Origin: Aplysia californica
Lineage: Eukaryota
DNA: 64,000 nucleotides
Assembly: GCF_000002075.1 (NCBI RefSeq)
Contig: NW_004797311.1
Span: 673,968 to 737,967, forward strand
Direction of reading: 5' to 3'
Shown: positions 27,770-64,000 of the stretch, in pieces
Layout: every line of letters starts with the position of its first letter
Numbering within the stretch: position 1 is the stretch's first letter
Notes under the pieces: generated by a model
Told to the model about the DNA's origin: nothing
The model's input: the letters and a program-made list of their open reading frames with translations, nothing else
The model's database searches: none
Made by a program: the position numbers and the translations under genes

Positions 27770-28632
27770 CTACTTTCTTATCACACGAATTTCCGGTTAT
27801 AGCTTTCAGAGTACGCTCAGTAGGCTTGAGCTGGGCCGATACCATGATTTACGTAGGCCTATCGGCTCTGTGCTCTCACCATTTCGTATTAAAAATTCTG
27901 TTAAAATAAAAGCGTTGATGTATTTTTGCCTAAAATTGCAAGAAATTGCGAAAATAGCAAAAAATTGCGGGTTTATTGCGGAACTCGACGAAAACGCTGC
28001 CGCAAGACCGCGATTTCCTGGAGGGCCAGAATTATTGTAGTAACTTCTGAACACAAAATTTGGGATACTACTCTTTGATGTACTCTTAGGTGTGTATTTG
28101 GTATTTTCCAAAGCCCTGACTTTTGTTAAAAAGTGGGTTCAGCTTCTCAAAAGGGCACACACTTGTCGTTTCTGTGGCTTTTGCAGTGTTGTTTATTGTT
28201 GAAAGAATTCGAATTATTCTTTGGAAATATCAATGTTTCAGTTTGCCCGGAGATTCAGCCGCAATGAGCCTCTCACCCTGGACTGGTTGTGCAGACAGAT
28301 TGGCTGGCCTTTGAAGCCCCCAGAGAACTTGGTGGAGTTGGTTCATCTAGAGAGTGTCTTTGATGTACTGGATCTCTACCTGTGGCTCAGGTCAGGATGA
28401 TTTATTGTCACTGAAACCAGTGCAATGTATATATATTTTCTACCAGTTTCTCACAACTAAGTCAAGCATATTATGTTCAGAATATCNNNNNNNNNNNNNN
28501 NNNNNNNNNNNNNNNNNNNNNNNNNNNNNNNNNNNNNNNNNNNNNNNNNNNNNNNNNNNNNNNNNNNNNNNNNNNNNNNNNNNNNNTACACACACACATA
28601 CAGGCATGCCGCACACATGCACACGCACAGGC

Positions 28633-28697
<65 letters not shown>

Positions 28698-34600: not shown

Positions 34601-35579
34601 CTTTTTGTTATTCACTTAAAAGCATTAAAGATCACTTCTTTAGACTGATCTGAAATCTGTGTGAATGTAATTTAAACATAATATTTCCGAAATATCCAGT
34701 CCAAATCCCTGCTTTTGTGTCATACAAGACTCTTTGGGATCTTAAATCAATCAAAGACATTTGCATATTCTGTAAAAAAAATACAAAATTGTTATTTCCA
34801 AGGAAATGACCTACTCCCCTAGTACTTATTAAAGTTAAGTTAAATATACAATTTTTACATTCCTATTTCAGGACAGTCTGAAAGTATCGGTTGTTTAGCT
34901 GTTACTGTATGATCAGATAGCATAACAATATTTTTGAATATTTCAGACCTACTACTATGCATAAAAACAAGGTATTATGGAAATTTTTTGCTCAACATTC
35001 TTCTCTAGCTTTTGAAAGGGCAGTAACATGTAAAAGAAAATGGTTTACACTTATGGTCAAAATGGCCATTATTGAGGCTGTTAGTAGAGACAAAACACAA
35101 ACGCTCAAATATATGAGGAGATTTTGTTCTATAATGCAGCTCCTTGTTATTTCCTCTGATATCTGATAGCTTCTGTTTTTATCCCCCCCCCCCTCCCCTT
35201 TGANNNNNNNNNNNNNNNNNNNNNNNNNNNNNNNNNNNNNNNNNNNNNNNNNNNNNNNNNNNNNNNNNNNNNNNNNNNNNNNNNNNNNNNNNNNNNNNNN
35301 NNNATATAATGTATAAATAAGTGTATACAGGAATAAAGGTAGTGGCGCGTTAGAATATAAATAATCTATGAAAATAGTTTTTTGAAAAATCAACCAGGTA
35401 AAAATGCGGTAAACAATGCAAAGATACCAGTTCCGTTCAACATTAAAACATGTCTTCTAAACAGATGCAATTTTTAAATACGTGTATAATATGGTGCGAA
35501 AAGTATTCTGAGATATCACAGATTCTCCCCCCCCCCTCACTCCCTCGTTCTTTCTTTCTCCCTCTCGCTTTCCTTCTTT

Positions 35580-35622
<43 letters not shown>

Positions 35623-43199: not shown

Positions 43200-44127
43200 G
43201 CTGCTAGCTCAGACACAACGCTCTGAACTGACAAACTTTTGTATAAAGCAATTTAAGGGTTTGAACCACATAATGGTTTATAATGTATTCATGTTCAAGA
43301 TCATATGATATTTACTTCGCACAAGAATTTCCAAAATATAGTCGGCTCCTCATGTGTTGAACTCGCTTGAGTTGATCTTCGGTAAAGTTGATCTTTTTCT
43401 CAGGTCTCAGCTCCTCTTCTTTACAGATCCCAATGTTAATAAGTTGAACTTGGGATGAGTTGATCCTTTTTTCACTTCTCTGACGACATCAACTCATCTG
43501 CAGTTGACTGTATTTGTACAGCACGGGAGGTGTTTGTGTGGATGTGGATTTATGCTTTAAAGTGGAAGGTTGACATTCTAGCCAGATAAAGAGGTAGAAA
43601 TTATGCACATTGAATACATTATACCTTTTGTGTCTCTCATGCGTTTGGGTTCTCTTGCAGCAGCAGGATAAAAATGAAGCAGCCCTCGTAACACTATAAA
43701 TATATGTTTTAACTACAGTCATTTGTACTGCATTTCATACATGTGTTTTGGCGAACTCTGGCCCGTCTGCTTTTCCGTACTTTCATTTTCTGTTGCTTGA
43801 TGTTATATACAAGCATTTTATCTTTTGAAACCTTGATAAACCTTCAACGTTAGCTACAGTCATCTGTAAAGGGAGCAGTGGGTGACGTAATAACGTGGTG
43901 GGCTATTTGACGGTTGCTCTGGTAAGGTTTGCTCCTTCTTTCCAATGACACATCTGTCGTATACTCTCCTCCTTTTTTGTGTTTATTACTCTTTTGTAAC
44001 ACCTCTAATCTTCGGTAGGCCTACTTATGTAACCTAATTGTGTTGCAAGTGCTGCAAATGGCTAACTGAGACCAAAGTAAAAAAGTGTGTGCGGGCTTGC
44101 ATACGTGCGTGCGAGGGGGCACGTGTG

Positions 44128-44134
44128 CGAGAGA

Positions 44135-44197
<63 letters not shown>
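44128..44197 (+). repeat. (GA)n microsatellite
   Basis: Direct reading. Other microsatellites: (CT)n 35583-35620, (CT)n(CA)n 28632-28694, (CA)n 44512-44546. Confidence 0.95.
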
Positions 44198-44199
<2 letters not shown>

Positions 44200-44510
44200 A
44201 AAGGGGACGGGGAAGGGGTGCGTTGAAAACGACGTTTGACGGCAGGAGATACGCTTGAGACAAGCAAGCAGAACAGAGAAAGAGGTCATGAGTTAAGGCA
44301 GTGATTTCTTAGTCTAGTTTTGGAAAAAGATGAAGAATTAATGGATGTTCTATTACTTGGCCTAAATAAGTAATCTGTCAAAGATGTCGTTTCGGGAAGA
44401 AAAAAGTGACGACGATAATTATCACTACTTTGGGACTTGCTGTTTCGGCTATCCTTTATTTTCTTCTTTTTTAAAAGCTGCTACTACTATTTTTTTAAAT
44501 GACGATTTCC

Positions 44511-44548
<38 letters not shown>

Positions 44549-45320
44549 ATTAATTATCCCTTTACCCACCCCTCCTCTACCTGTATTTTCTTCCTCAATT
44601 ATTTTTGTCTATCAATCTAACTTTCCCCAAACACTTCATGCCTCTGATACTATCACTATCACTGATAGTGTCTAAATATTTCTCTTCACTTGTACAAAAA
44701 TTAACCCGTTTTGCGCAAATGAAGACAGGTGGTTGGAGGGCGCCACTGGTATGCCTTACTTCCTTACTGTCCCTCTGTTGATTCTGTTTGTCTGTCTTAC
44801 ATTTTCTCAGAATTAAGTGACCTTTTGTGTTGATGTACTTCTCTTTATTTTTACTCAAACAAGCAAATAGCGCAAATGAGTGGCAGAGCGCGGAATGATG
44901 TACTGTCATGTCGATACCTTCATTTTTTCCAATTAGTCATATCAGACCAACAGGCTTGAAGAACCAGTGGTGTGCTTTCTTACTCTGACACTAAGCCTAG
45001 GCTCATTCTAAGCACATAACACAATCTGTTTCACCCATTGCTAACAGCTGATCAGAACGTAGGCCTAGGCCAACACGACAAACGATTGACAATTCAGCGT
45101 GTTGGAAGAAATCGCTGCCTGCCCTGTGCTCGCTGCCAGTGACAGACAAATTGGCAAATGGGCTCCTGACATAACAACCATGTAAATGGCGGATTGTTTA
45201 TGTCTCTCGCTGAACTCTGGCTCTCTTGACAGATAGCTTCGTCGACAGAATGTTTCTGACACCTGTGCCATAACGGTTTTATTTTATTCCCAGTTGTCAA
45301 ATTGTTCGTATCATAGCAAA

Positions 45321-48300
45321 ATGACGTTCACCCCAAGGGATGTGAAGGATGTCTCTGCTCTTGTTGCTAAGAAGTTGTAAGTAGAAATCTAGATTTCTCC
45401 ATCGCCACTCTGAGACTCTCTCGTTGTGTTTTTCTCCTTGATCAGCAGGTTAATTTTACAACTACACGTCTAGTATTCTTTATTGTTTTGAATTTATACA
45501 ATAGATTCTAGTTTGATTATCGAACCGACCAGAACTTAAACGACCGTTGCATGCTATATTGATTGTCTACGTTTATGCTGTCAATTGAAAATGTTCTGAA
45601 AAATTAAGTAAATTTAAACTAAATTAAACGGCTCCTTTTTATACTTTTAAATCGCTGCGTCGCTAGACGCGGCACTGGTCGCACCCAGGTGCAGGGATTA
45701 CGACGTAATGCTTACGGACCCGAATTGAATGTCTTTATATTGTATTAGAAATCTTAATCCTTGTGCATTAGCATTAGCGTGGCTAAGCCAGTTCGGTGAG
45801 CTTTAACCATTATTTTGCTAAGAAGATTAAGAGTGTTCCACGACTGAACCTACCGCCTTAGTTATTTTTCTGTTTAGTAGTAGACGAATAATTTGTAACA
45901 TTGTGACCCAGTACTAAGCTGTGTTTTATCCGTGGATGATTTGGATAATAGCTCTTCGGAACTGGATTACTTGTGTGGGTTAAAACAAAATTGTTTTCAA
46001 ATTGAAACCTGATCAAGAGCCCAGGTTATTTTGTGATTTTGTGAAGAAAATTGAGGTAGGCCTATCCTATGATATGACATTATAACCTAAATGTTTTCTT
46101 TAAAAAAAATCAGGAATACAAGATATGTTATGTTCCTCCTCGATCTGTGCCTTTATAGAAGTATAAGATATTATATGTAGGATAATACTTTTCATATTCA
46201 TTGATGGAACTATTGTGGGGTTTAGTTCCTAACATCAATCCTAGTGTCAATCTTGCTTTTTAACCGACAGAGAGTTGTATATGAATGTTGAGAGAAGGGA
46301 AGAAAGATTCGACCCTCAAGGATGTTACAGAACAACACCAAATATGGTAAGAATCACTTTCTGTTATATATGTGGCCTCTTGCGGTTGCTGGAAATCAGA
46401 TAATTATATGATTAGTTAGTTGTCAAGTCTACAATCAATGTGAAGTTTGAATTCGCTTTTCAAAGTGGTTCTTAAAATGAAGAGCCAAATTCATCTAAGA
46501 AAAAAATAAATGCTTTTCTCAAAACAATGCTTCTTGTCAAAAGTAACACATTTCCACATACTATAACTTAAAGAAACATTAAGAGGTCAAATCCAACCGC
46601 ATTCAGAGCGGAGTTCTGGACTGATAAATTACCAAATTTAGTGCGATGAAAACAAGGGTCATTATAATTGTCATTACATGAAGTGTTACAATTTGGTTTC
46701 TTTCACTTAAGTCCTCCTCCATTTCTCATCTTTCATTTGTTTGTTTTCTTTATTGTGCCTGTTGACAAAGCAATATTCCAATTTTTGTTTGAGTTATGAT
46801 ATTTATACTGAGTCCGGTTACATCGTTTTGTTGATGCAAGACCGCAAGAACTAATTCACTCGTTTTTCCCAAAACCCACGCTTTGACAAAGTGAAACTAG
46901 ATGTTTCAGGTACGAAGGCTGACTTGTTTGACAGGGTAATCAAAGTGAAACAAAACCAGATATAATGGCCTGGAGATATCACACAAGAATCTTACTCGAG
47001 GCGGCGACTCTTAAGTTGTGTGAATGAAAACAAATCCGGAATTCAACCGCCAAAATAATCGGGAAAGTATCTCATTAAATATCAATTCCAAACTAAAATT
47101 AAATTTAACTTTAAAAGTGAATACACAAACCCAAAGCAAGGAAGCAGAGATGTCAGTACTAGATCTATATGTTATAGAGATACCAGGGAGTCTAACGCTT
47201 TGGTAGAACATGACAATTATCATTTTTAAAAATTTCACTTTTGGCTGTGTTTTGTCTAGCTTTTCGCGGCCAGGAGCCGTTGTCATAATCGAGGTCACGA
47301 TCTGATTATAGGACGTTAAAAAGTCGAGGAAAAAAAACAAGCATTCGCAGCAGTAAAGAGATTATTAGGAGTTAGTTCCCCTCACATCTGTAAGGTAGAC
47401 TCGACCAGTGTACAAGTTCACGTACATAATCAGGGCTTACGACTGATTATAACTGTGGCCCGAAAGGGGTGAACAGGGTATATGTGGCAATGAAACAGTA
47501 TTGACTGCTATGCATGTATTCCCTTCAACTCTATTGGTAGACTCTTCCAGCCCCACTTTAAGCTTATTCAAATCAAAGCTTGTGACTGCTTATGGAGTGG
47601 CCCGAGAGGGGTGAGCAGGCTATTTCTGTGGCAATGAAACCGTTTTGAATGTTAGGCATACTGTTCATTGTTGATATTGAACGTCTTTTTACCTTTAATT
47701 TATAAGGTTTACGTTTATGGGTGAATTTGACTGCTACAACGTTTCAAAATTAGGTAGGGAAGCAGTGATTATTTGATTATATAGACGCTTCGCCACTGAG
47801 ATGTTTTCGTTTCCTGAATCCTTTCTGAGTTTTTCAATAGCGGTAAAAAGTAATTATAAATGACGGATCGTGTTAAAACTAAACAAAACTGAGGTACCCT
47901 ATCATGGCCAATATATCGGCGATACATCTGCAAGGGGTGTGGACTCGTGCCAATATATCGGTGATAGGTCCGGAAAGAGTTAAAATGGAGTAAGCACTGT
48001 GGATCTGGCATCTGGTATCGTTCATTGATTTGTTCCGAAGCTTTTAAACATCAAATTTGACACAGCATCACTTCTTTGCTAAAATGTTTGTCTCTGAAAT
48101 AAAAAACACTCAAAGCACTATTTTGCTCCCTTCGATGATGATGGTGATGATGTTCTTGATGTCCTTTTCGGTGATTTCTTATTTATGAAGATGTGGTTTT
48201 AAAGTGAATTTTGTTTTGTTATTGCTTTGCTTTTAATGATATAAAATGTAATGTATTTTGTTATTCCTTTTATTATTTCAGCGAACTTTTGATTTGATGT

Positions 48301-51300
48301 ATCATATGCTGGAGAAAGGAGAACTTGATAAAAAGAGTCACAAAGTCTCGAAGTCTAAGGGAAAGCATCACCGGAAAGGATCAAAGTCCCCTGAAAGGAA
48401 AGAAAAAGCTTCAAAATCTGACAAAAAGTCAAAAGGGAAATATTCAGATCATGAAAGTGATGAAGGCATTGATGAGAGAAATGGATGTCATGTAAACAGG
48501 TATGAGTCTCTTTTGCTGACAGAGCAGGTAAACCCTTAGTGTGCTCTTTGTTGAATTAGTTTGACATACAGTTCTAGAGCTAATTCTTTCAAGAGAAAAA
48601 AACATCTGGTTTCTGTAAAGCATAAAAGTATGCCATGCTGACATCTTTTTTAAAAATATTGTTTTTAGAAAATGTTGTTTGAGGATCAATGTCAAACAGT
48701 AATAGGAACATACAAGATGATATTGTGTCCCCGTCTTCTGAAAGCAATGGTGACTTGACCTCAGTACTTCAGTAATTGTGTTTGCATTCTGTTTCCTGGA
48801 TCAATATGTGAATGTAGTCTAGATTATAACATCTCAAATTTGGTCATAGTCCCTTTTGTGGTTTCTCTTCTACAGTGATGTAGAACCTAAGAAAAGAGAA
48901 AAGAAAAGCAAGAAAGAAACTGTTAAACCAAAGCTGGTTGAGAATTCCAGACGTGTAGTGCCATTCCAAGAGGCGGAGAGGTTGAAAGAAACAGCAAACA
49001 AAGTTTTGGTCAGTATGTTATAGGCTCACAAACCTGCCAAGTACTCTGATAAAATCGAGGCCGTTCGATTTTTTTTTTTTACCCTTCGAAGAGTCGGTCG
49101 GATTTGCATATAATCTGAGTTTTTTTTTCTTAGATTCCATTTCCATCGGTTGTACATAACTTATCTCAAATGGCGTGAAAATGTAGGGGTATATTTGTAA
49201 TATTTGTGCAACTTATACTTATCATAATGACATGAAAAATTCAAAGGTTATTTGCAACACTTGCACGGCTTATCGTAATGATATGATGTCAAAATGCAAA
49301 ATTTTATTTGCATATGTTTGCAATACACGTTTATTTGCCATGATTAATTTACTGGTATTATAAAGACTCTGATTTTTTTGCCCACGAACTCTAATTTTTA
49401 AAGAAGATTTTGAGGAAAACTCCTATTTTTGGTCATGGAGTGGTTGGCAGGTCTGGGCTTACAATTATTTGTGTGTTTGATTTCTGTTCTCATGCATGTG
49501 ACCAAGTCAAGTGTGCTTTTGTGTATATATTTATGTGTCATGACGTGGTAGAATCAGACGCTCGTCAATGATCAATTTTTGGGCATATGGAGTTATTGGT
49601 ATCTTCTTAAAGCTTGTTCAATTATCTTGCTTCTGATAGGAAAAGTACCCATCCGTGTTACTTGCGTTTGAAGGAGGTGGGGGTCCCCTTGTGTTGAGAC
49701 AAAATTAGTGAGAAAGTGGTGGCCTAAGTTTGGTGATTTTCAAAGCATAAGTGTCTTTGAAAACTGCCAATTTACATTTATCTGTTTCTTTTATCAAGGT
49801 TTTTCTTTAACCCTATCCGTTCGTTGTGTTTTACAATCGTATCATTACGACATGGGAAACTCTGTCCCACCACTTTCCAAAGAGGAAATTTACTCGTTAA
49901 TCCTATCTGTACGCTTTGCATAGCAGTCTGTCAAAATGATTTTTTGAGAAATACTGAAAGTTTCAAAGAGATTTTCGTACTAGAAGTATTCTAAAATGTG
50001 AAGAATACGACCCCGGGGATACAAAATGACCCCAGGGCGTACAGATAGGGTTAAAATCCACACAAGAATGTGTTTTATGTGAAAATAAAAAGTGTTGAGC
50101 CAAAAAATTGTCCAGGAAAGAAAAACGCAGGTTTCTTTGATTTCATTATTTTTGACAAGCTCCTGATTTTACCACAATGCCTGGCATATATTTATGTGTG
50201 TATGGTGCGGTTCTTGATCCTTCAAGACTAATGTGTATCTATGCTGTGCAGAGATATTGTGAATATGTATGTATGACTATAAGTGAGCTATTGTTCATGT
50301 ATAACTAAATGCGTTTTTATGTGTTTGTATATGTGTGAATGTGATACAGTCTTAATTCATGGGAGGTTGACTGATTCTCTCATGCGGTTTGCTTATGCTT
50401 TCCTATCAAATATCTATTGTCTTTATCTTCTCCTTTTCCTTTTTTGTGCTTGTTATTCTCTTTAAGAAATTCGATACAAAAAAGTCTTTTGTTAAAAATA
50501 ATAATATAAAGTTGACGAAAATTTATATCTATTACAGTTACTGTTATCTGGTCATGTTCTGTTATCTGCTTTCATCTCCACTTCTGCTTCCCCCTTCCTC
50601 TTGGCTCCCGACTCTTTTTGCTGCTACTTCTGGCTCCTTCTCACTGTTGTCTTTCAGCTACACTATTTAAGGTTGGTGAGATTTAACACTTAACCTTCTC
50701 AGATAAGGGAGAAACAATCTTGGAGGTCTTATGTGCAAGTTGTGTATGTTAAAAACTCTTTTGATGGTCTTAAAATAAATAAGAGTTGGCTTCGGCTGCC
50801 ACTCCCGCAAAATTAAATTCAAAATTAATTCTTACCCAAACTGAAAATGCCCTTAGTAGGTATAAAAGCATATAGAGTCCTTTCAAAATCGGAATTGTGG
50901 CTGCCTGACCTGAAGGCAAGGGGCTTTACTGAGTATGAAAAACAATCACATACACACATAAAATCAGTTGCACTGCAGATTGAAGAGCCAGTGACCGACT
51001 ACATCTGATATGGAGCCAAGAAAAGAATGGAATTTTAAGACACACCCTTACATCTTTGACTCCAAATGTACGACAGTGTCTCTCCTTTGGAGCATATCAA
51101 GGAAGTCAAGATCAGAAGGGAGGGAATTGGTACTCTATGTCTATCGCCCATGCAAAGCTGTTTCGTGAAAATTGCTTTAAGATCACCTGTCAAGATGCAA
51201 AATGCCATCACTGTTAGACTAACTATATGACACCCGTTTAAAAAATAAACCACTCTTTAGGAATAACTTTTGTTCAACCGAAAGACTTTGAAATGATAAA

Positions 51301-54300
51301 ACTACACTAATCTCCATTTGTACGAAATGCAGTGCCATATCTAAAACCACGTCTCACTCTGACGAAGAGCCTTTTTCTGCTTTGCTTGCAAGGACTCAAA
51401 ATTAGCGCATTTACCCCACAGTCTTTCCTTTCTAACAACATTTGGTCAGTAAAGTACGTGTGACAATGTCTTTTAAGGCCTGACTTTGGACTGTTGCAAA
51501 GAATACAATATACAGAATGAGATTGATAAATATGAAATATTTTTATTTTGAACATCCATATTTCAAACTTGGCTCCTAGTGTATGTGGGAGGATTTATAC
51601 TTTAAATCAGCTGAACTTAGCATTGGTGAATTAACAAAGATGAAAACAAATATTCCTCTTTAATGATGGGATGTGAACCCTTTTTCTGTGCTATAATGAC
51701 AAATAAAAACATATTAAGTGTCAATGTTTGGAATGCACTTGTGCATTCTGTCTAAACCTGTAATAAAAAATTTGTTTTTTTTTCTGATGGAAGGTCTAAA
51801 GTGCTTCATTTATTCTATCCTGTCTCCTTTACTCTTCTTTATAAAATTCTTTACAGGGGGAGCAAGATCTCGATAAACTTTGTGTGATCCATCGTTATCG
51901 GCCACATAGCGTTGATATTGCACCCATAACTGAAAACGGAAAAGTGTCCAACTACGTCATGCATGTTGGATCTGCTCTTCATTCAAAAAATTATGTTGAG
52001 TACTACATGAAAGAGGGTGAGTAGTTCAAAGTCCTTATATAAAAGAGAGTAAATTGTTGAGACAGGTTATAGTTTGAAGATATTGCTAACTGCTTTTTTG
52101 TTTTGCTCCATTTGAAGACGGTGACACAAAATGAACTTTTTTTTTTGCCAGACTTTATACACTGTAGTTCAGTACAGCTTGACAAAGGGAAGCATTTGGA
52201 CTTAGTGGAAACAAGATGCTTTTGAGAATCAGCTAACAATTATTTTCTCTTTTGTTGTTGTTATTTGATCTTACTGCTATCTTGTGCAAACTCAATTTTT
52301 CCATTAATATCAAATCTCAAGTAAGAGTTTTTCTTCAGGTTTTAATGTAGTAAGAAAACATTTTTCTTTTCATCACAGAAAATGCCTCTCTATCCTTTCT
52401 GCTTTGTGTTTAATAGAAAATACTTTGTAAGTAGCCTTCTTTTTCTTGTTAATCAATACTGTATGTAGTTTGTTCAACCGAATGTGAGAATGCCTTCCAG
52501 GCTGATTTTCATTTTTTTTCTTAATCTCTTAAGTAAAAAAGTTGACTTTTAGTTGAAATATATATGGTTTTCTCTATATTAACAGGATTACAGTCTGGAA
52601 ACAAAGAGCATGCCAAGAGACTGCAGCGTTTGGGTGGCAAAGATGGTGGGGTAGGTTACTTAAGGCTAGACAAATATTCTGTAATGGCATTGTTTCTTAA
52701 TTTAATGTTAAGACTAATGATCATAAGGATAGGGCTTAACTTCTACGAATGTCTTTGAATGATGTTTTGATCTTATTTTACATCAGTATATTATTTAAGG
52801 TTTAGACTTAAAAAGGCTACGTAGTCAGTGGTCAAACTCGGTACTTTGTGGATGGTTGGCCGGTGCTCTGGTGTTGTTTGCTTCTTCTTTTCTATCAAAC
52901 ATATGTGAGGCAGCGTGGTGGAATCAGGCTCTCGTCAAAATAATCAAAGTGAAAAAACTGGCATTTTTTCGCAGGTTTTTAAATTTTTATCAAATTTTTG
53001 TTTTTCGGCTCAAAACCTTTCAGACCCTTTAAAGAACTCATTTCTTCGTGGATTTTTCTTAAAAACGTTGATTAAAGGCACAAAAGATGTAAATTTTCTG
53101 TTACCACGTACTCTTAAGCTAAAGAAATAACTAATCTTTGGTTGCCATTTTTTCGCTAATTTTAACTCTGAAAACAGGTGACCCCCACCTCCTTCATACT
53201 TCATTTGCAAATATCTCGACTTTTTTTCAAGATAAATGGATATTTTTTTCATTCAGATAAAGAAAAATGAACAAGCTTAAAGTTGATATAAATAACTCTA
53301 CATGCCCCAAAATTGACGAGAGCCTGATTCCACCACACTGCCTCACATATATCGTCCTCATCTCCTCTCCTTCATTTTTGTGTTTGTTACTCTCTTGCAA
53401 CACCTCTAATCTTCGGGACTTATATGACCTTATTGTGTTACAAGTGCTGTAAAACACTTACTAAAACAAACTCGGTACTTTTGTGCTTGAGCTGCATTCG
53501 GTTGAATATCAACACTTTCCATTAAGTAATCGGGATAAATCTTTTCTTCAGCCTTTGAAACAGGATCACAATATTGGGCTTGCAATGATATCAGTTGTTA
53601 TGACACAAAACAAAACTGCACTTGTAACAAAGTAAAGTGCCTTACCCAAGGGCTCTGTCTTGGAAATGTCCTATTTTTGCCTGGTCAGACACTGTCCTCT
53701 TAACACATTTCACGCTGTGCCTAGAGATTCCCTGTGCGCACCTTTCATTTCTGACCAGAGCGCAGGAGGGTTAATCCCCTGTTAGGAGTGATATCTCTGA
53801 CACACCTATTTTTGTTGGAAAACCCGAAAATTTACTAGGTCGGGTGACACTGTTTTTGGTAAATTTGCTTTGTATGAAATGATTTTGAGAACAATTTATT
53901 TTATACCATAAGCAAAGCATGACCACTTCTTAGTGTAAGACTCAGCATACACCCTCAGTGTACACCCTCAGCGTACATGCTCAGCATACACCCTCAGCGT
54001 ACACCAGATTGAAAAGGGAAGTATAATGAAGTCTTACGCTGAACAGTCTACATGTAAACAGTCTGAAATGTCAGAGATTCAAAGTTCACTGAAAGGGTTT
54101 TCCCTATTTTTGTTTATCTAGGACAGAGATACATATGAAGAGCATGGGGATCAGCATCCTTCAGGAGGTAACTCATGTTCAAGACAGTAAGTTTAAGTTT
54201 TCTTCTTTATGTTTCGTTTTAGTTGAACGACATAAGCATTTCCAGTGTAGCTCTAGAAAGGTCAGAGGCCGGAGGGTCCTGCTCGTTCCATGCAGCTCTA

Positions 54301-57300
54301 AATGTTTATGAGCTTCACCTTGTGAACTTATTTTCCAAATGCAGTTGAACCGGCTCTATTGATCACCTGCCCAAGACAATAACCTGTACAAATGACCATT
54401 TCCCACTTCCCTCTTTTCACTTTATCTATATTATAATGACATTGGCCTCTAGGACCTTCTGTCTATATTGACCACTTATCTCCTTGAGGATATGTGTTAG
54501 GATATGCATTCCATGGAATGTTTTTTTAAATAGTTTATTTAGGGAGAAATAAATTTGCACAAAGCAACAGGTATTTGTACTATCTCTTTGCATTTATTTG
54601 GAACATGGTTCCGGGTTACATACTCCACAACTTGGAAGCTTATAGCAGAAGAAAAGTGTAATTTCTAAGTATCTAGCTGTCGTACCGTACTTGTGGTAGT
54701 CATGTGAAAATCTATTTTATCTTCTTTACCTATTTGCTTGTATTCCCCATTTACAGAAAAACATAATGAAATTGGTAAGACTGTTGACATTATATTATTT
54801 TCCTTCTCCTTATGATGCATAAATGTATCTGGAGCTTTTTTCATACTTCTTAATTAATCTGTTTGCATTTTTCACATCTTTAGTTCAGCATTTTGTTTCA
54901 GTACGAACTGACCTGCATACTCTTTTTGTGATGATCGTGTCTACTTTAGAAATAAAATCAGTACATATATTTTGAGTTCTTGTGACTGTAGACTCTTTTT
55001 TTTCAAGTTTCTGTCCTAGTTCAAGCGCGGGATGGATGCAACATTTAATAACGTTAGATCTTTAATGTATTTATCTGTTGTAAAATATGTAATATGTGTC
55101 ACAACATGATGGAATCAGGCGCTTGTCAATTTTTGGGCAAATGGAGTTTTTGGTATAATCTTATTAAAAGCCTGTTCACTTTCTTTTCTTTTGTTTAAAA
55201 AAAATCCTTCTCTTTCTCCTGCTTTTTTCTTTGCGTTCCCCTGCTAGATCTCAGGGGTAGTTGACTACTGGTTCTTCAATCTGCAGTGCAACTGATTTTT
55301 ACATATGTGAGCGTTTTTCTTACTTCATAGGGCCTCTTGCCATCAGGCAGCCTCATTCCGATTTCAAAAGTACTCTATATGTTTTTATACTGACTAGAGT
55401 ATTTTCAATTGGGATAGGAATTTTGAATATTTCCTGGGTGGCAGTTGAAGCCTAATCCTATCGATTTTAGGACCATCAAGGGATCTTTAACGTGCGCAAC
55501 TTGCACATAGGACTTCCGAGATTTGTTGCCTTTATCCATGAAGGCTAAGTGTTAGATCATACCTACCTTGACATCACATGTGTGGCTGAAAGACAGCAGT
55601 AAGAAGGAACCTGGAGTATAGTAAAATGAGTCAAGTGTATAGAAGAGAGGAGCCCTGAGGAGGCTGAAGAATTGGGGTGGGGGGGATGCAAGTGGAAAAA
55701 GTGGAGATGAAATCAGATGACAGAACAGGACTGGAGAACTGGAAAAGAGAAGAATGGAGGCAAATTTAGAGAAGGAAATTTTTCAGTCTCTGTCAGGTTT
55801 CGAACCCCGGACCTATTGAATGAGAGGCGAACACTCTACCTAAAAAAATCCTTTTGTCTTGAATAGAAGTTAATAGATATTTGTGATTGAAGGCGATGGG
55901 TCTCCTAGTGTCAGAGAAAATAGCCTCCCGAGTTTGGTGACTTCCACAGTTTGAGTGTCCTATGAAACTGACAATTTACCTTTTTTGTGCTATTGATCAA
56001 CGTTTTTGAGTAAAATTCATACAGAATTTGTGTTTTTAAATGGATAGAAAAGGTTTTGAGCCCAAGAGAAAAATGAGATAAATATTGCCCAGTGGGTGGA
56101 AAAATGCCGGTTCCTTTTTTTTCAATGTCAATATTTTGATGAGCACCTGATTTCACCAAGATGCCACATACAGTGGGTGTCGCATTCAATAAGGTTGCCA
56201 GGACCGGCTTTTTGTCCGCGTTGGATCCGACCTCTCGTTGAACGTGACTAAGGCTAAAGTAAAGAAAGGAGACAAGTTATTATATATATATTACACGATG
56301 TACCAATACCAATAATTAAAACAGTTGTTCCCCCTGATAACGAAAATCTCAAACAGCATCAGTGTGCGCGTGTTTTGACCTGTGTTCTGACCATCATTTC
56401 TGCATTTTAAAATATTTTTTTTTCAGAACACTTCTCGTGTGGAAACATACCCTCTCACATCTAGGCCTAGATATCTACATAAAGTAAAGGAGGGAGCTTG
56501 GATTTTCTGATCAAAGGAAGAACAGAAAATGGAAAAAAATCAAGGTCTCCATCTAGACCTACCCTTCCAGAGTTCATCCAGTTTCACACTGCCCGCTCAC
56601 CCCCTCTCTTCCCTACCGTAGGCCAACCCTCGTCCATCCTCTTGGCTTTGGGGCCCATATTAGGAGGCACACTAGATCTAGCAATACAATGTGTTAGAAA
56701 TCAAGGATGGGCCTTGTGCTTCGCGTGAGATGGAGAGAAAGGAGAAAAATTCTTTGCTTTTGGGGCCACTAATTGCTTTTATTTGGTTATCGCGACCTCG
56801 TTGAAAGCGACTTCGGTCTGTTTGGAACCTCGTTGGAGCTGACGTACATTTACAAAGAGATATAGAGAAAAAAAATAGAGGATTAAGAATTGCCTCGTTG
56901 TTGCCGACTTCTCGTTGAATGCGACACCCACTGTATATTTCTTAACTTTACACTTATTGCTCTCAAAACTTGCTTCATTGTACTTGTAACCTTGTTTTTA
57001 CAGTGTTATCAAGAACTTTTTGTAGCCTCTTAGTTTTTACAAATCAATTTTTTAAGTTGGTGATGGTGAACTTTTTTTTCCTCTTTTAAGTAGGAAAAGA
57101 ACCCTCATTGTGTGTTCTTTTTGCAAAGGCTTGCTTTTCTTAAGTAGCACCTTTTTGCTCATTCTCATATGCATTCAAGATTTCATGTACGTAAAATCAG
57201 CAAACAGCAGTTGCTTAGAGGAAGTTTTTTCATTAATTTCTTTCTTGTTGCCTTACCTGGCTGAAAGGGATAAGTTACGCAGTAAACCTTTCAGGACTTT

Positions 57301-60300
57301 AATTTTTACTTTGGGGGTGGGGGATGAATAGTCGGCAGCCTTTTACTAACAGAGGTGCTACTCCCTTTGCTGGTGGGGATCTACTCTTACGTTACCTCGC
57401 CGGTGACATCTTTTTCTCATTGTCTGTCCAACTCTTTTTGGTACCGATAGTGCTAATACTATTTATCTGTGTCAAGCAGGGCATTGAAGATAGTTTGATT
57501 ATGATGAAACTCAAAGTCAAAACACTAATTCATCTATTCTTTTCTGAAAATATGCTTTTTGTTAGTTGTTAGTAAACATTGTGAATTGGCTGGGCTGTAT
57601 GATATGGACATCAATATTTTTTGTGATGTACCCATCTGTTTGTCAAATTATTGTCTTCTTTTCAGTGTTGGCACTTCTTTTGCTATTCATCCTTCCATTT
57701 CTTCAGAAAATAGGTTGTTGTTTTTTTATTAATTAAAAACTGATTTTAGTGAATATGATTTCGAAAGGTATACCTGTTCATGTCTGCCAACATGAGGCAC
57801 ACTTGGAACATTATATCAATGCTCTTTTATTAGAGTGAATAGCTTAAGAACACTTTCGTTTCAAATTTATTATGTCTGTCTTTTGGGTTGTGAGCCATGT
57901 TTGAATAGTTGAATGTAATTGATAAACTCTTAATGTGTTTGATGTTTATATCGAGGGTATTCTCTTAAATGCTCTGTAATGTTCACAAATTGTGAGTTGT
58001 CAAGTTTTTTTTAGTTTATAGAAATCCTTTATACTATCGTTGTCATACCAAACCACTGACCTCCATATATATTATGTATGGAGAGAGGTCAAGACTTCGA
58101 CAGTTTTTATGTGCTTCCAACCCTCCCCCCTGTTTTGTATCCTATCTCATAATGTGGCATGTCGAGGGTAGGTTTGGTGACAACTCTGTTGTATTGTCAA
58201 TTCAATGTGTATGTAGCTCCTGTTACTGTATTTCTTTTTACATCCTTTTTCCATAATATGTAGGTAACAATGGCGCAGGCATTAACTCTAATGTACTTTC
58301 TGCTTTTCTTTTGCAATCAGTAGTTTTATTTTTAAATTTGTGACGCATACATTTGATTTTCTTTAATAAAAAATTATTTTTAAAAATATATATATTAGCC
58401 CTTCTCAGCTTTGCTTTTGCTCATATTATCTTTCTCATAACAGAAAAAAATGTCACACCTTAATTTTCCTTAGCTGGGACTACTGTAATTTTCTCTTTGG
58501 AAGTACCAGATAAAAGAACTGGCTTTATCATTTGCATCAATTTTGACCCATATGCAGGACGATAATAATACTTTTTATTTTATTATTGTATTATACTTTT
58601 ACTATTTTAATGTATAGTTGCCCACAAATATGACTGGACATCTTCTGACCCTGAGTATGAAATTCAACTTTTTACATAGATCTGATGTACAAAAAATAAA
58701 TGATGCGCAGCATATGTGGAGGCTACAAGGAAACAGTTTGTAGTGAAACACGTTTTAAAATGTTGATATTGCATAACATATGTCTCTCTAAGAGGTCAAT
58801 AATATTTGATTAGATTTTTACACATTTGCCGTAATGTTATTTTCTGTCAAAGCACAGCTTTCTTGCTGAATGTCTTTTGAATGAAGGAAGTACTTTTTCA
58901 GTCACACATGCATGTATCCTCCCCACCCACCCCTACCCCCATGTTTGTCCTTGAGAATTACCATGGGAATCAATCGTCTTATATTGACCTTTTTTTCAGG
59001 GAATGGACAAGAAAGTCATCAAGAATGCGGGAAATATTCAGCCCTGACAGCAGCATTTGTTCATCCTCATCACAGGCCTCCCCTCGTAATCTGACACCAA
59101 TATCCAAAGGCAGACCAGTATACAACACTATTCGGAGTAGCACCCCCCAGTCTTCGCGGGCGTCTGCAGGCAAAGTGTCTAAATCTTCCTCTCAGCTGTA
59201 TGACGCTCGAAAGTACTCTGAGACATTTGGGTATAAAATTGTATTAGGGGATATAGACAATAAAGAACCTTATGATGGAGAAGCAGGAAGTGTCAGAAAT
59301 AAATCAGAGTCAAGAGCTGATGTTGCAAGTTCAGAAGATTATTGTAAATTTTTAACAGGGAAAACAGACTCTTCCTCAGATATAGTCCGAAATGGGGATG
59401 GGCTCCCAACAGAGGAAGATTCTCTAGTGAAAAGCGATCCTGTAAGGTTGTCCGAAGTTGAAATGAAGTACAAGAAATACCAGAGTTCAGAGGCCAGCAG
59501 CACAGAACTGTCATTAGAAGACAGTAGGGCTCACGCCAATGGTCATCGGGACTCGTGGTTGGAGTCCCAGAACACTGCAAGGTCCAGCACATCTAAGAAG
59601 TCTGTACTATCTGTCAGGTCAGACAGGTCACATTCATCTCGCTGCTCACTGGCACACTCTGGAAATGAAGTGGAGCACTTGCACTTCCCATCTCGCCAGT
59701 CAGGTAATTATGATTCCACTAGATCAGAGGATGGATCAATAACTGAAAGGACTGTGTCATCTCAGACAATGACTCCCCGGAGGTCAAGGAGCAGTGCTAA
59801 GAATGTTGAGCCTATCCTGACTGTTATTTCATCTGAAGAAGTCCCTCGCCTAGGCATTACATCTTCTCTTAATGATACAAATGGTAGAAACAGTAGCTTC
59901 AGTTCTTCCAGAATTGAAGATTACATGACAGCAGAGGAAAAGGCTAAGGCTCATCCTGATCACAGGGCCAGTGAGGATAGAATTAACTCCATTGAAAACA
60001 GGGCAGTGGAGAAAGATATGGAGATTGGGGATCAGAGAGCAGAGGCCAGTGTTAGACCATATTTGGCAGATGAGGGCTACATTAACACAGAGGATGTTTC
60101 TCGTTCCGTACCCCCGGTGTCCCACACAGAGTGTGCTGATGGGGATAAGGCATCTGGTGAACAACAGAATAAGTCTGGGGGGGAGGGTAACCAAGGCGAA
60201 GGGGATGGTGAAACTAAGGAAGAAGACAAAGGTACCTCGGAGAAGACAGTGGAGGGAGATGGCAGTGCACAGAAACCAAGCTCTAGCAGGACCGTGAAGG

Positions 60301-63300
60301 CAAGGAGGGACAGTGTGCAGAGTGCACCGGCACAAGCGATGACACATGACAGAAGACATAGCTCAACCAGTAATAAGACTCCTGTTGTGATTCCGAAAAG
60401 AGCAAATGAGATGGAGGGAATGGAATCTGAACGAGGGGAGGACCAGTTGCGAGACACTCAGTTTGACCGAGGAGTGATCCCTGACACTAATTCAGTGCCG
60501 GCTAAGAAAAAAGTGGAAAGGGGAGATGATACTCCTCGTGTGAGTATGGAGGAAAGAACGAGACTAACAAAGTCAGCAAAACAGCGTGGTAGATCAGAAT
60601 ATCTCACAATGGATGATGATGAACGAGGTCTGGAGAAAGAATATTTTCAACCTTTGGCGACTGAGAAGGAAGAGTATTACACATCGGATGTGTCAGCAAA
60701 GGAAAGTGAGATTGGCTCCCCTCCAAGCACAAGACCGTCCTCTGCTTGCAGCCAGTCATCAAGTTCCACCGTGAAATCAGATGGCAAAAAACGCAAGAAA
60801 AAATCTTTGCGCAGATTTTCTAAAGCAAGTGCTGGGGTAGCAGAAGCTGTAGAACCTGAAATTAAAGAAGAGAGCCGGCCGGCATCAGCTGCTAGTAAAG
60901 ATCCCGATGGGAGAGGAGATGACAGTAACAGTATCAAAGATGCAGGTGCTTCTAATGGCAAGAATAAGTCAAGTGAAAAAATGAAGAGTCCCTCTGGAGA
61001 GATGGATGAGGCAGGTGACAAGAACACTGATGTTCGTCCAAATTCACGGTCCAGTCAAGCATCTTATAGTAAAGCAAAAACAGAAAGTAACTACACGAGA
61101 CCCCAGTCTGCCAGCTCCAGAGGAAGCTTTACAGCTAAAGAAAAGCTCGGAACTGGTCAAGGATATGCTATTGATGGAGAAGTATTGAACAGGGGAATAG
61201 ATGACAACACTCCCAGGACTCTAAGGGAACTAGAGCGTGATAAAGAGGATCAACTGGCCATGGAAAATCGTCAGAACGTAGGAGAAGCTTTTCATAAAGT
61301 AGAAGGTTTAGATGAAGCAATGAGGCCAGACTCTAGGAGTAGCAAATGCTCTATGAAGTCCTCGGAATCGGCTAAGAAGGCTGAAAGTACCAAGCTGAAA
61401 TCAAAGAGCCCTGACCAAGAGCCACAGTTACGCCCTTCTTCTGGCACAAGTCTGAGGTCAGTCAAATCTACTGGTTCCAAGAGTTCCCAAAAGTCAGACA
61501 AAAAGGAAAACTTGGTTGATAAGTCGCATAATTCTGCTGTTGGACAACCTGCAGGTCAAAATGTTATCATAGAAACAAGTCCTGAAGGCAGTCAGAATGT
61601 TGAGAAAAAGGAGACTGAGAAAGTATCTGCTGCGAGCGACTCTGGGGGAGGTTTTGTCGAGACAGGAGTCGAATCTGTAGAAAATGCCACTGGTAATGGT
61701 GAGTTTGATCAAGACACTGAAAAGAAAATTGATGCTGTCCTTCCAAAAACACAGAGTTATGAAAAGGAAACAGCAGAAGCCACTGCTCCAAGTGGAAATC
61801 AAAGTGAACTTAACCAAGATGTCCCTGTTGAAGAGAAGGCTTTTGTTGAGAATGAATCAAATGAGACGGAAATACTTAAAGGGGCTGTCTCTGGATCAAA
61901 TTCACTTGAAAAAATTTTGTCAGGAGTCAATGAAGGGCCTATAGATTTCAGGCCTTTATCGGCATCGACGGCAAAATCCGTTGGCTTGGAGCGTGAAATT
62001 TTCATTGACTGTAAAAGATCAGCTGTTCCACAGCCATCCAAGATCAGTGAAGTAACAGAGATTGAAGACAATATAACCACAGCTAGGGAAACACATCGTT
62101 CGGCGATATCGCCTAAGAGTGTGAAAGACAAAATAATTATTCCTCATCCAGCAGAAGTTGTTAAAGTAGAGAAGAAGGAAGCTGTGGGTCCGGTGCTTAA
62201 TCTAGCAGATGTGAAATTGGAATCCCAACAAGATTTGCCAGCTGATGCTTTGGTCCATCCGAGTATGAAGCGCAAAGAGTCAAAGGCTGACTCAGAGAAA
62301 AATAGTGAGAAAGGTCTTGTGGTGGCAGCTGGTGCTGAGCAAGAGGAGACTGAACATTCTTCACAAAAAGAAGACCGTGTTAAATTGCCTTCTGAAGATA
62401 TAGAATTTGGAGGGCCTGAACATTCGTCAAATCAGTATACTAAGGAAGTGGAAAGACCACCATCTGTAGCAAGTAAAAAATCTGCTAGCAAGGAAATAGA
62501 AAGACCACCATCTGTAGCTAGTCAGAAATCTGCTAGCAAAGAAGTTGAAAGACCACCATCTGTAGCTAGTCAGAAATCGGCTAGCAAAGAAATTGAAAGA
62601 CCCCCATCTGTATCAAGTCAGAAATCAGCTGGCAAAGAAGTTGAAAGACCACCATCTGTAGCAAGTCAGAAATCAGCTAGCAAAGAAGTTGAAAGACCAC
62701 CATCTGTAGCAAGTCAGAAATCAGCTGGCAAAGAAGTTGAAAGACCACCATCTGTGGCAAGTCAGAAATCAGCTAGCAAAGAAGTTGAAAGACCACCATC
62801 TGTAGCAAGTCAGAAATCAGCTGGCAAAGAAAATGGAACCCCACAGGCTGTGGTGAGTCCAAAATCTGGTGGTGAAAATTCTTTTCCAACGCGAAATGAA
62901 AAGTTTGAAAATGGAGAAATGGAGCCAGGTCACCCATATCAGTCTTTTGAGGATAAAGAAGCTGGTATACCAGCATCGAGTAAGAATGTTCTTGAAGCAG
63001 CTGTGGTTGCTATCCCTGGAAATGATGTTAGAATTGCCACAAATGAAGTTAAGGGCTACGCAGAAGCTTCTCAGGACATACCAGTGGGGGAATATAAATT
63101 AGGAGGAGAACGTCATGGATCCAGCCAGTTGGAGAAGCCCATTGGAGTAGCTTCCACATTTGATACACAAACATTTTCATCTGTTGAAGTACCATGTGAA
63201 CATTTTGGTGCAGAACAAATTGGAACAGCTCAGGAAAGGTCCCCATCTGCTGGAAGTCAAAAGTCCATTCCAAAAGAAGGAAAGATTGAAAGGCTAGCAT

Positions 63301-64000
63301 CTGCAGGTAGTCACAGGACTGTGCCAAATGAAGAGCCGATTAGGTCCCCATCTACGGAAAGTCAGAAGCTGGCAAATATAGATACTGAAAGACCACCATT
63401 AGTGGCAAGTGACAAGTCTATTCCCAAAGAAGGAACAGTTGGAAGGCCCCCATCTGCCGGAAGTCAAAAGTCTCTTCCAAAAGAAGTAACAGTTGAAAGA
63501 CCCCCATCTGCAGGAAGTCAAAAAGTAACAGTCGAAAGGCCCCCATCAGCAGGAAGTCAAAATTCCGCTGCAAAAGAAGTAAAAGTTGAAAGGCCCCCAT
63601 CAGCTGGAAGTCAAAAGTCCATTCCAAAAGAAAGGCCCCCATCTGTTGGAAGTCAAAGATCAGCAGCAAAAGAAGTAACAGTCGAAAGGACCCCATCTGC
63701 AGGAAGTCTAAAGTCACTTCCAAAAGAAGTAATAGTGGAAAGACCCCCATCTGCAGGAAGTCAAAGATCTGCTGCAAAAGAAGTAACAGTCGAAAGGCCC
63801 CCATCTGCAGGAAGTCAAAGATCTGCTGCAAAAGAAGTAACAGTCGAAAGGCCCCCATCTGCTGGAAGTCAAAAGTCTCTTCCAAAAGAAGTAACAGTCG
63901 AAAGGCCCCCATCTGCAGGAAGTCAAAAGTCCATTCCCAAAGAAAGGCCACCATCTGCTGGAAGTCAAAAGTCTCTTTCAAAAGAAGTAACAGTTGAAAG
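45321..64000 (+). CDS. Uncharacterised large protein (>1900 aa): possibly C2orf80-like N-terminus plus giant disordered RPxS-repeat region; 3' end beyond window
   Basis: Phase-consistent exons 45321-45376, 46271-46346, 48282-48499, 48876-49008, 51857-52016, 52586-52650, 54122-54186, 59000->64000. Reads MTFTPRDVKDVSALVAKKLELYMNVERREERFDPQGCYRTTPNMRTFDLMYHML... Confidence 0.7.
49029..49455. mobile_element. hAT-like non-autonomous element
   Basis: CAAACCTGCCAA ... TTGGCAGGTCTG termini; flanks GGCTCA / GGCTTA. Confidence 0.55.
49811..50050. mobile_element. piggyBac-type MITE
   Basis: TTAA|CCCTATCCGTTCG ... CGTACAGATAGGG|TTAA; a second internal left end TTAATCCTATCTGTACGC at 49897. Confidence 0.7.
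50680..51010 (+). mobile_element. Headless copy of the same SINE family, opposite orientation
   Basis: Reverse-complement similarity to 55255-55555 (e.g. AAAATCAGTTGCACTGCAGATTGAAGA). Confidence 0.7.
52848..53466 (+). mobile_element. Second copy of the about 180-bp retroposon, split by a MITE, 15-bp TSD
   Basis: CAAACTCGGTACTTT at 52833-52847 and 53467-53481. Confidence 0.8.
52904..53347. mobile_element. MITE with about 35-bp TIRs and TA flanks, nested in a short retroposon
   Basis: TGTGAGGCAGCGTGGTGGAATCAGGCTCTCGTCAA / TTGACGAGAGCCTGATTCCACCACACTGCCTCACA. Related end fragments at about 49535-49615 and 55095-55175. Confidence 0.88.
53941..54005 (+). repeat. 13-bp minisatellite x5 (CTCAGCRTACACC)
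   Basis: Direct reading of the sequence. Confidence 0.85.
55255..55840 (-). mobile_element. tRNA-derived SINE with Nin/Deu-like central domain
   Basis: Minus strand has GGTAGAGTG...GGTTCGAAACC (A/B boxes, 55840-55790) and the GCACGTTAAAGATCCC core motif at about 55480-55496. Confidence 0.7.
56171..56933. mobile_element. Tc1/mariner-type MITE
   Basis: Perfect 19-bp TIR CAGTGGGTGTCGCATTCAA / TTGAATGCGACACCCACTG flanked by TA; subterminal CTCGTTG repeats. Confidence 0.88.
59000..64000 (+). CDS. Giant (>5 kb) coding exon, Ser/Glu/Lys-rich low-complexity protein with tandem repeats
   Basis: Acceptor ttttttcag ends at 58999. The frame starting at 59001 (EWTRKSSRMREIFSPD...) is open wherever I checked it, up to the window end (...SQKSLSKEVTVE). 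It is absent from the ORF track, consistent with no stop being reached. Confidence 0.88.
62451..62831 (+). repeat. Coding minisatellite, 8 x 48 bp (ERPPSVASQKSASKEV)
   Basis: GAAAGACC units recur at exact 48-bp spacing: 62451, 62499 ... 62787. Confidence 0.95.
63234..64000 (+). repeat. Coding minisatellite of about 54-bp units with 39/42-bp variants (ERPPSAGSQKSLPKEVTV), about 15 units, open-ended
   Basis: Recurrent GAAAGGCCCCCATCTGCAGGAAGTCAAA; all length variants are multiples of 3. Confidence 0.93.

What the first reader, a model, noticed from the sequence alone, without database searches (positions are those of the whole stretch)
59000..64000. Hidden >5 kb exon encoding an array of R-P-x-S kinase-consensus sites
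Seen: an open frame from 59001 to the window end, absent from the ORF track. It carries scattered RPxS sites (RPSSA, RPASA, RPNSR, RPQSA, RPDSR, RPSSG, RPLSA), then about 17-18 tandem RPPS[V/A] units. Established: R-P-x-S/T is the substrate consensus of the cilia-linked CMGC kinases MAK/ICK and CDKL5 (the latter preferring A/G/P/S at +1), and is related to the DYRK consensus. Inference: a giant disordered multi-site phospho-scaffold, plausibly flagellar or sperm-associated, whose site number is tuned by repeat expansion. This is the best candidate here for an undescribed system.
Basis: partly seen in the sequence, partly recalled or inferred. Interest (0 to 1): 0.7.

Follow-up and report, generated by a model that had tools for sequence, protein, structure and literature searches.

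The report
Giant exon of tandem kinase-site repeats
The last exon of an uncharacterised sea-slug-type gene encodes a 2,100-residue floppy tail with 53 repeats of a kinase target motif, kept in related species, that likely works as a charge switch flipped by phosphorylation and that an 18-base stop exon would leave off the protein.

Summary
The frame is open from 59001 to a stop 1.4 kb past the window (2,129 codons) and holds 53 RPx[S/T] sites; 25 lie in the window, against 1.6 by shuffling. It is not hidden: it is exon 8 of a single-copy gene (start 45321) that NCBI already models but does not name. Two sacoglossan orthologue models keep the tail and an 18-residue RPPS array (33 and 42 sites). 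New here: (1) 47 of 53 sites extend to R-P-x-S-x-x-S/T-x-x-S/T, a priming site followed by a CK1-type relay. (2) One contig shows an 18-nt exon with an in-frame stop spliced onto the giant exon, which would give a 260-aa tail-less protein like the short homologue models of other gastropods. (3) The N-terminal domain occurs from molluscs to amphioxus and weakly matches DUF5563 (recalled, untested: vertebrate C2orf80). Phosphorylation, the kinase and the tissue are untested; nothing here shows a flagellar or sperm role. Eleven sites have Val at +1, poor for CDKL5, and most distant homologues lack the motif. A real, unusual variant of multi-site phospho-tails.

The parts
45321..45376 (+). Coding exon 1 (from the ATG) of the gene
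   Evidence: The eight exons with AG/GT ends rebuild NCBI model P0005 letter for letter
46271..46346 (+). Exon 2; first conserved block of the N-terminal domain
48282..48499 (+). Exon 3; end of first conserved block and Lys/Glu-rich linker
48876..49008 (+). Exon 4; start of second conserved block
51857..52016 (+). Exon 5; most conserved block (HRYRP core); single copy in G000
52586..52650 (+). Exon 6
54122..54186 (+). Exon 7; ends in phase 2
54757..54774 (+). Alternative 18-nt micro-exon with AG/GT ends; included after exon 7 it puts TAA in frame and gives a 260-aa tail-less ORF
   Evidence: One contig of run X11 joins it to 59000; located; translated
59000..64000 (+). Exon 8, the giant last coding exon; continues past the window to a stop at window-equivalent 65390 (G000:C41:739357)
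   Evidence: contigs of X11, X12, X14 cover it and not the intron before it
60732..61979 (+). Seven scattered RPxS sites; 7 of 7 have S/T at +3 and 6 of 7 at +6
62451..62819 (+). Array 1: eight 16-residue (48-nt) units, all RPPSV..S..S; net charge of the region +9
63441..64000 (+). Array 2 (continues to window-equivalent 65375): 40 units of 13, 14 or 18 residues, mostly RPPSAGSQKS; 38 intact RPxS; net charge +47

Best explanation
The stretch is the 6.4-kb last coding exon of a single-copy eight-exon gene, and it encodes a 2,129-residue, predicted disordered tail with 53 R-P-x-S sites that likely acts as a multi-site phosphorylation switch hung on a small conserved N-terminal domain. Shown: the gene, the open frame, the motif counts, the S/T at +3 and +6 after most sites, conservation in two orthologue models, and fewer amino-acid than silent changes among units. 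Inferred mechanism: an Arg-Pro-directed CMGC kinase (CDKL5/CDKL2/ICK type for the RPPSA array; a Val-tolerant one such as DYRK2 for the RPPSV array) would phosphorylate the first serine, and CK1 would then run down the pS-x-x-S-x-x-S relay. The basic array (net +47) would turn acidic with one phosphate per site (about -29 by arithmetic) and far more so with three, which would loosen its hold on an acidic partner, most likely microtubules, or swell it as a spacer. The N-terminal helices would anchor the protein. Inclusion of the 18-nt stop exon would make the anchor without the tail.
For: Open frame and counts. 54 of 57 Arg-Pro pairs in P0005 are RPx[S/T]; 33 of 36 in P0002; 42 of 44 in P0003; shuffles give 1.7-2.7. 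S/T at both +3 and +6: 47 of 54, 23 of 33, 38 of 42; in the non-repeat part of P0005 7 of 7 at +3 (p 2e-5) and 6 of 7 at +6 (p 6e-4), against 29% and 23% for the other 174 serines there. The acceptor serine is present in 48 of 48, 35 of 35 and 38 of 38 array units. Between arrays 1 and 2, pN/pS is 0.028/0.578 at the five motif positions and 0.183/0.62 at the other six. RPXSA is the CDKL5 motif, with substrates MAP1S, CEP131, DLG5 (PMC6293279, passages); ICK and CDKL2 phosphorylate the RPXS site of EB2 (PMC11371643, passages); pSxxS is the CK1 consensus (PMC7012598, passages); DYRKs act as priming kinases and tolerate Val or Ala at +1 (PMC10952393, passages). Exon-only contig cover in 3 of 3 contig runs.
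Against: No phosphorylation, binding or location was tested. The only splice junction into 59000 that I saw is the stop-containing one (one contig, depth 9.5, with a single letter pointing to exon 7); the full-length junction rests on gene models. Within array 2 the motif positions are no better kept than the other unit positions (pN 0.056 against 0.060), as expected if the whole unit spreads by repeat homogenisation; the between-array contrast rests on a handful of independent changes. Units were defined by a match to the consensus, which favours apparent conservation and left out degenerate units such as TPPPV in P0002. 0 of 53 sites have Pro at +1, the preferred residue for DYRK1A and algal CDKL5. 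15 of 17 distant homologues lack RPx[S/T] enrichment, and the two that have it (Lingula 11 sites, Lottia 7) have no full relay (0 of 11, 0 of 7). Two polyA raw-read runs gave almost no reads on the exon.
Confidence: 0.45

Rival explanations
1. One reading: a flagellar or sperm phospho-scaffold read by ciliary CDKL5/ICK/MAK.
For: CDKL5 and its algal homologue are ciliary kinases with this motif (PMC12711092, PMC9444073, passages). The 12 named homologues among 20 looked up are molluscs, a brachiopod, an annelid, echinoderms and amphioxus, with no arthropod or nematode. The N-terminal domain is modelled as loose helices without a compact fold (pTM 0.35), as filament-bound proteins often are (own knowledge). 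Near-absence in two polyA runs fits tissue restriction.
Against: No tissue label was available. No match to solved axoneme chains by sequence or fold (low-confidence model, so inconclusive). MAK did not phosphorylate the EB2 RPXS site in cells. If the C2orf80 lead is right, the mouse gene is strongly induced in brain development (PMC4359739, passages), although a review calls the human gene testicular (PMC4259396, passage).
Confidence: 0.3
2. A structural entropic spacer, like the KSP tail of neurofilament-H, in neurons or another cytoskeleton; phosphorylation is constitutive and sets volume rather than switching binding.
For: About 50 short Ser/Pro/Lys repeats in a terminal tail behind a helical head; the known CDKL5 substrates are microtubule and centrosome proteins; the NF-H comparison is recalled.
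Against: No intermediate-filament rod or other Pfam family in P0001-P0003; the ordered priming-plus-relay spacing suggests regulation rather than bulk charge.
Confidence: 0.15
3. The array is a low-constraint repeat expansion of one ancestral Ser-rich unit; only the N-terminal domain and a few tail islands matter, and the RPxS fit is incidental.
For: Eleven homologue models of 184-380 aa or less carry the domain with no tail, among them Babylonia, Littorina, Pomacea, Haliotis and Gigantopelta; echinoderm homologues have charged tails with 0 RPx[S/T]; a stop exon can remove the tail; unit number and period differ between species.
Against: Seven non-repeat sites share the extended motif, and three of them align with intact sites in both orthologues. 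pN/pS over the unit core is 0.058/0.305 within array 2. The same 18-residue period and core are kept in three species.
Confidence: 0.1

Closest known systems
CDKL5/CDKL2/ICK substrates MAP1S, CEP131, EB2, DLG5, IFT74 (PMC6293279, PMC11371643, PMC12711092; passages seen)
   Same: R-P-x-S with Ala, Gly or Ser at +1 in 40 of 53 sites
   Different: The passages describe one main site per protein; here there are 53, 46 of them in tandem arrays, 47 with S/T at +3 and +6; 11 have Val at +1
PER2 FASP cluster, CK1 pSxxS relay (PMC7012598; passages seen)
   Same: A first serine followed by serines at +3 and +6
   Different: PER2 has one cluster primed by CK1 itself; here the relay is repeated 47 times and each starts with an Arg-Pro motif of another kinase group
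Neurofilament-H KSP tail; Smoothened and Ci kinase-primed CK1 clusters; giant repeat exons of RP1L1, RPGR ORF15 and ALMS1 (all recalled, not tested)
   Same: Long disordered terminal region built from repeated phospho-sites or repeats, often in one giant exon
   Different: No sequence relation found (Pfam); different motif; different head domain
Pfam DUF5563 (PF17718); recalled to be the vertebrate C2orf80 family
   Same: 5 of 24 homologues of the N-terminal domain hit it, best E 3e-4; one hit spans profile positions 3-152 of 192
   Different: All hits are under the curated cut-off (20.7 and 18.8 bits against 25); P0001-P0003 do not hit it; the link to C2orf80 comes from memory, not from a call
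'sericin 2' label on the Plakobranchus orthologue GFO48384.1
   Same: Ser-rich low-complexity repeats
   Different: The N-terminus has no hydrophobic leader by eye (no signal-peptide predictor was run) and the protein carries the conserved intracellular-looking domain; the label appears compositional

Membership tests
CDKL5-type substrate motif | Arg at -3, Pro at -2, Ser/Thr acceptor | tested here: met
   53 sites in the exon; 25 in the window against 1.57 by shuffling; motif from PMC6293279
CDKL5-type substrate motif | Ala, Gly, Pro or Ser at +1 | tested here: inconclusive
   Met by 40 of 53; 11 have Val (all 8 of array 1) and 2 have Arg; Val severely reduces CDKL5 activity
CDKL5-type substrate motif | Phosphorylated by the kinase in vitro and in cells | not testable with these tools
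   Needs a kinase assay or phosphoproteomics
DYRK1A optimal substrate (RPXS/TP) | Pro at +1 | tested here: not met
   0 of 53; a review says Val and Ala are tolerated, Val best by DYRK2
Primed CK1 relay (pSxxS) | Ser/Thr at +3 and again at +6 of the primed serine | tested here: met
   52, 48 and both 47 of 54 sites in P0005; 23 of 33 and 38 of 42 in the orthologues; consensus from PMC7012598
Primed CK1 relay (pSxxS) | Sequential phosphorylation that depends on priming | not testable with these tools
   Needs a peptide assay
DUF5563 / C2orf80 family | Score over the Pfam gathering cut-off | tested here: not met
   Best 20.7 bits against 25; no hit for P0001-P0003 at E <= 1; no hit at this locus in G000
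DUF5563 / C2orf80 family | Remote homology of the N-terminal domain by profile | tested here: inconclusive
   5 of 24 members hit at E <= 3, more than any other family (next: 2 members); no profile-profile test possible; no vertebrate among the 20 of 49 profile hits looked up
Ciliary, flagellar or sperm protein | Expression in ciliated or germ tissue, location on the axoneme or basal body | not testable with these tools
   Run metadata are coded
Ciliary, flagellar or sperm protein | Relative among solved axoneme chains | tested here: inconclusive
   No sequence hit under E 0.08, no Foldseek hit under E 4.8, best Z 5.4 on generic helices; model mean pLDDT 55.6
Neurofilament-H / intermediate filament | Filament rod domain | tested here: not met
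   0 Pfam families for P0001-P0003 at E <= 1

The most novel reading that the evidence does not exclude
An ancient, unstudied animal family (the invertebrate branch of C2orf80) anchors to microtubules through a short helical domain; in sea slugs it gained a 2,100-residue tail of about 50 two-kinase cassettes (CDKL5/ICK priming, then CK1 relay) that works as a cooperative charge switch, and an 18-nt stop micro-exon toggles between the ancestral tail-less protein and the switchable giant. It would be the largest natural CDKL5-type substrate array described and would tie C2orf80 to CDKL5-family signalling.
Probability: 0.2. Interest if true: 0.75.

Novelty: new variant of a known kind. Interest (0 to 1): 0.5.

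Why it matters
The CDKL5 substrates described in the passages I read carry one main site each. A natural array of about 50 primed cassettes would be a ready substrate for testing how CDKL5, ICK, DYRK and CK1 divide R-P-x-S sites by the +1 residue (Val array against Ala array in one protein) and how site number shapes a switch. If the DUF5563/C2orf80 lead holds, the family gives a first structural and pathway handle on a human gene of unknown function that sits at a glioma risk locus (search listing). The stop micro-exon offers a simple, testable on/off switch for a 2,100-residue tail. If the tail is only a spacer, the finding is a curiosity of one gastropod lineage.

Tried and rejected
First read lay over 44100-64000 was swamped by dispersed repeats and showed no gene junction among the rows displayed; X1 and X3 hold 96% of the exon's words yet showed no depth over 58708-60699, which the tool says may be its filter. 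No RNA holder was listed as such; RNA status of X11, X12, X14 is a guess, supported only by exon-only cover and one junction. Pfam on the exon and on the full proteins: nothing. Structure of the N-terminal domain: low confidence, no meaningful fold match. ESM Atlas: two errors, then no usable feature hit for two homologues and only TM <= 0.35 matches. Other copies of the array in G000: none; all 17 protein matches and all 33 pattern matches lie in this exon. Control: the three large exons of the neighbouring ALMS-motif gene have 1, 3 and 2 RPx[S/T] against 0.37, 1.1 and 0.49 expected, p 0.07-0.31. The ATG that overlaps the micro-exon's stop opens another, short frame (ends within 20 codons), so it does not restart the tail. 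Literature: 0 papers for DUF5563; 0 for DYRK + priming + casein kinase 1 + tandem repeats + flagell; none of the 15 listed of 380 for RPXS/repeats/cilia/mollusc held 'RPXS'; 0, 0, 0 and 1 for four consensus searches. The ICK/MAK peptide consensus paper was not held, so that consensus stays recalled. Four look-ups of earlier scan notes gave nothing. No complex prediction was run: no partner is known. No supplements were read.
Full report
Observation. The + strand frame is open from 58881 to the window end, the longest of all six frames (1,706 codons). An acceptor ends at 58999. The window is G000:C41:673968-737967; in the next stretch the frame ends at TAG, window-equivalent 65388-65390, after 2,129 codons, followed by AT-rich sequence with several AATAAA. 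In the window part there are 25 RPx[S/T] against 1.57 in 2,000 shuffles, and 7 against 0.76 in the first 1,140 residues, which hold no tandem repeat. The whole exon has 53.

The gene. A search with residues 1-1140 gave 3 proteins among 7,979 candidates scored: the locus's own model and two sacoglossan proteins, Plakobranchus ocellatus GFO48384.1 (34% identical over 66% of the query) and Elysia chlorotica RUS76793.1 (32% over 96%). The own cluster has 5 members, 3 read: NCBI models of 2,387, 2,365 and 2,121 aa, shown without names. Eight exons with AG/GT ends, from 45321 to 65390, rebuild the 2,387-aa model exactly. So the exon is annotated but uncharacterised. The nearest homologues suggest a heterobranch gastropod (inference). 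The most conserved exon is single-copy in G000, and the repeat occurs nowhere else: 17 of 17 protein matches and 33 of 33 pattern matches lie in this exon.

Transcription. Of 24 runs listed, 19 hold the stretch, none on record as RNA. In one search, contigs of X11, X12 and X14 cover the exon and show zero depth over 57400-58920; the polyA raw-read run X22 gave 3 reads in all, and X21 gave depth under 1 on two of eight exon bins. One X11 contig (depth 9.5) starts at the acceptor with 18 loose letters. These match 54756-54773 with one mismatch (4 of 100 shuffles gave any match). That place is an 18-nt exon, 54757-54774, between a pyrimidine-rich AG and GTAAG; the one mismatch is at the acceptor G, where the contig has the A that ends exon 7. 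Placed after exon 7 it reads into TAA and gives a 260-aa ORF. The 2,121-aa NCBI model starts at the first Met inside the giant exon, as one would expect of a transcript whose upstream frame is closed (inference). This rests on one contig. I did not see the direct exon 7 to exon 8 junction; the second lay did not include exon 7 and the first was swamped by repeats.

The head domain. Residues 1-235 found 14 shorter proteins among 3,902 candidates, including models of 184-380 aa in Babylonia, Littorina, Pomacea, Haliotis and Gigantopelta at 45-64% identity. A profile of 10 of them found 49 proteins at E <= 0.001 among 1.84 billion. I looked up 20; 12 are named: bivalves, a limpet, a chiton, Lingula, Capitella, crinoids, a sea star and amphioxus. 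The domain has two conserved blocks joined by a charged linker. The model shows separate helices, mean pLDDT 55.6, pTM 0.35, with no fold match. Five of 24 members hit DUF5563 below its cut-off, best E 3e-4. I recall DUF5563 as the C2orf80 family; no call confirms it, and no paper holds the term. C2orf80 is described as strongly induced in mouse brain development (PMC4359739, passages) and as a testicular gene deleted in a gonadal dysgenesis study (PMC4259396, passage).

The tail. All three full-length proteins have scattered sites and then an array with the same core, [E/D/N]RPPS[A/V]xSQKS, and an 18-residue period; this locus also uses 16, 14 and 13. RPx[S/T] counts are 54, 33 and 42, out of 57, 36 and 44 Arg-Pro pairs. 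In the non-repeat part of this protein it is 7 of 7 at +3 and 6 of 7 at +6, against 29% and 23% for the other 174 serines; the positions were picked after looking at nine offsets, and the orthologues' sites are partly the same sites, so they are not independent. Among the 48 units amino-acid changes are rarer than silent ones (0.058 against 0.305 within array 2). Between the two arrays the five motif positions are better kept than the six others (pN 0.028 against 0.183, pS about 0.6 in both), but within array 2 they are not (0.056 against 0.060). Three near-units in the spacer between the arrays were left out of these counts (51 found, 48 used). Array 2 has net charge +47, the orthologue arrays +28 and +35.

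Limits of the pattern. Of 17 more distant homologues, only Lingula (11 sites against 0.69) and Lottia (7 against 1.83) are enriched; echinoderm, annelid and bivalve tails are not. Neither has the +3/+6 relay, and their tails did not score against a profile of this tail. The array is therefore shown only in three related gastropods. As a control, the large exons of the neighbouring ALMS-motif gene are not significantly enriched.

Mechanism. RPXSA is the CDKL5 motif; Val at +1 severely lowers activity (PMC6293279, passages). Algal CDKL5 prefers R-P-x-S/T-P and acts on flagellar proteins (PMC12711092, passages). ICK and CDKL2, but not MAK, phosphorylated an RPXS site in cells (PMC11371643, passages). 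DYRKs are priming kinases, prefer Pro at +1 and tolerate Val or Ala (PMC10952393, passages). CK1 acts on pSxxS in sequence (PMC7012598, passages). Here 40 of 53 sites fit CDKL5, 11 have Val, 2 have Arg and none has Pro. The best reading is a primed relay: a CMGC kinase marks the first serine, CK1 adds two more, and a basic disordered array turns acidic; one phosphate on each of 38 sites would take array 2 from +47 to about -29. The partner is most likely microtubules, because the known substrates of these kinases are microtubule and centrosome proteins. Every step from phosphorylation onward is inference. A ciliary or sperm role is possible but has no direct support here.

Verdict. Real, already modelled, undescribed in the searches named. 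It works like known multi-site phospho-tails and is not shown to belong to any named family. The extended motif, its repetition about 50 times, and the stop micro-exon make it a new variant of a known kind. Interest 0.5.

Noticed in passing
window 76-234, 1611-3599, 4761-6005, 9644-11746 (minus strand); G000:C41:671293-671391: A gene with large disordered exons ending in an ALMS motif (PF15309 over the cut-off at two exons), so ALMS1-like; a centrosome/cilium gene about 34 kb from the start of the gene studied. No evidence that the neighbourhood is more than chance.
   Followed up: partly
window about 28300-39150 (plus strand); G000:C41:712508-713101 and 702305-702355: Weak SUV3_C matches (PF12513, under the cut-off) and an exon at about 32300 that resembles the SUV3 helicase core (recalled) suggest a SUPV3L1-like gene between the ALMS-motif gene and this one; one small exon occurs twice, once next to a run of N.
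   Followed up: partly
window 21960-22898 (minus strand): A 313-codon open frame that by eye resembles the end of a LINE reverse transcriptase and the start of an RNase H (recalled); Pfam gave no family at E <= 0.1.
   Followed up: partly
P0023 (Lingula, 870 aa) and P0027 (Lottia, 1,496 aa): Homologues of the head domain whose unrelated tails are also RPx[S/T]-rich (11 and 7 sites), a hint that the family picks up such tails more than once.
   Followed up: partly
P0051, P0045, P0052 (unnamed): In P0051 (777 aa) the conserved domain lies at the C-terminal end (610-771), behind a long disordered region: the reverse of the usual order.
   Followed up: no
window 59025: The first Met of the giant exon lies in a short block conserved in both orthologues (SRMR.I.SP) and starts NCBI model P0004; a tail-only product is possible but untested.
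   Followed up: no
L001-L006 (window-equivalent 72146-73214, 102319-102729 and 114468-114878): Near-identical stretches occur twice downstream, next to runs of N; possibly assembly duplications.
   Followed up: no
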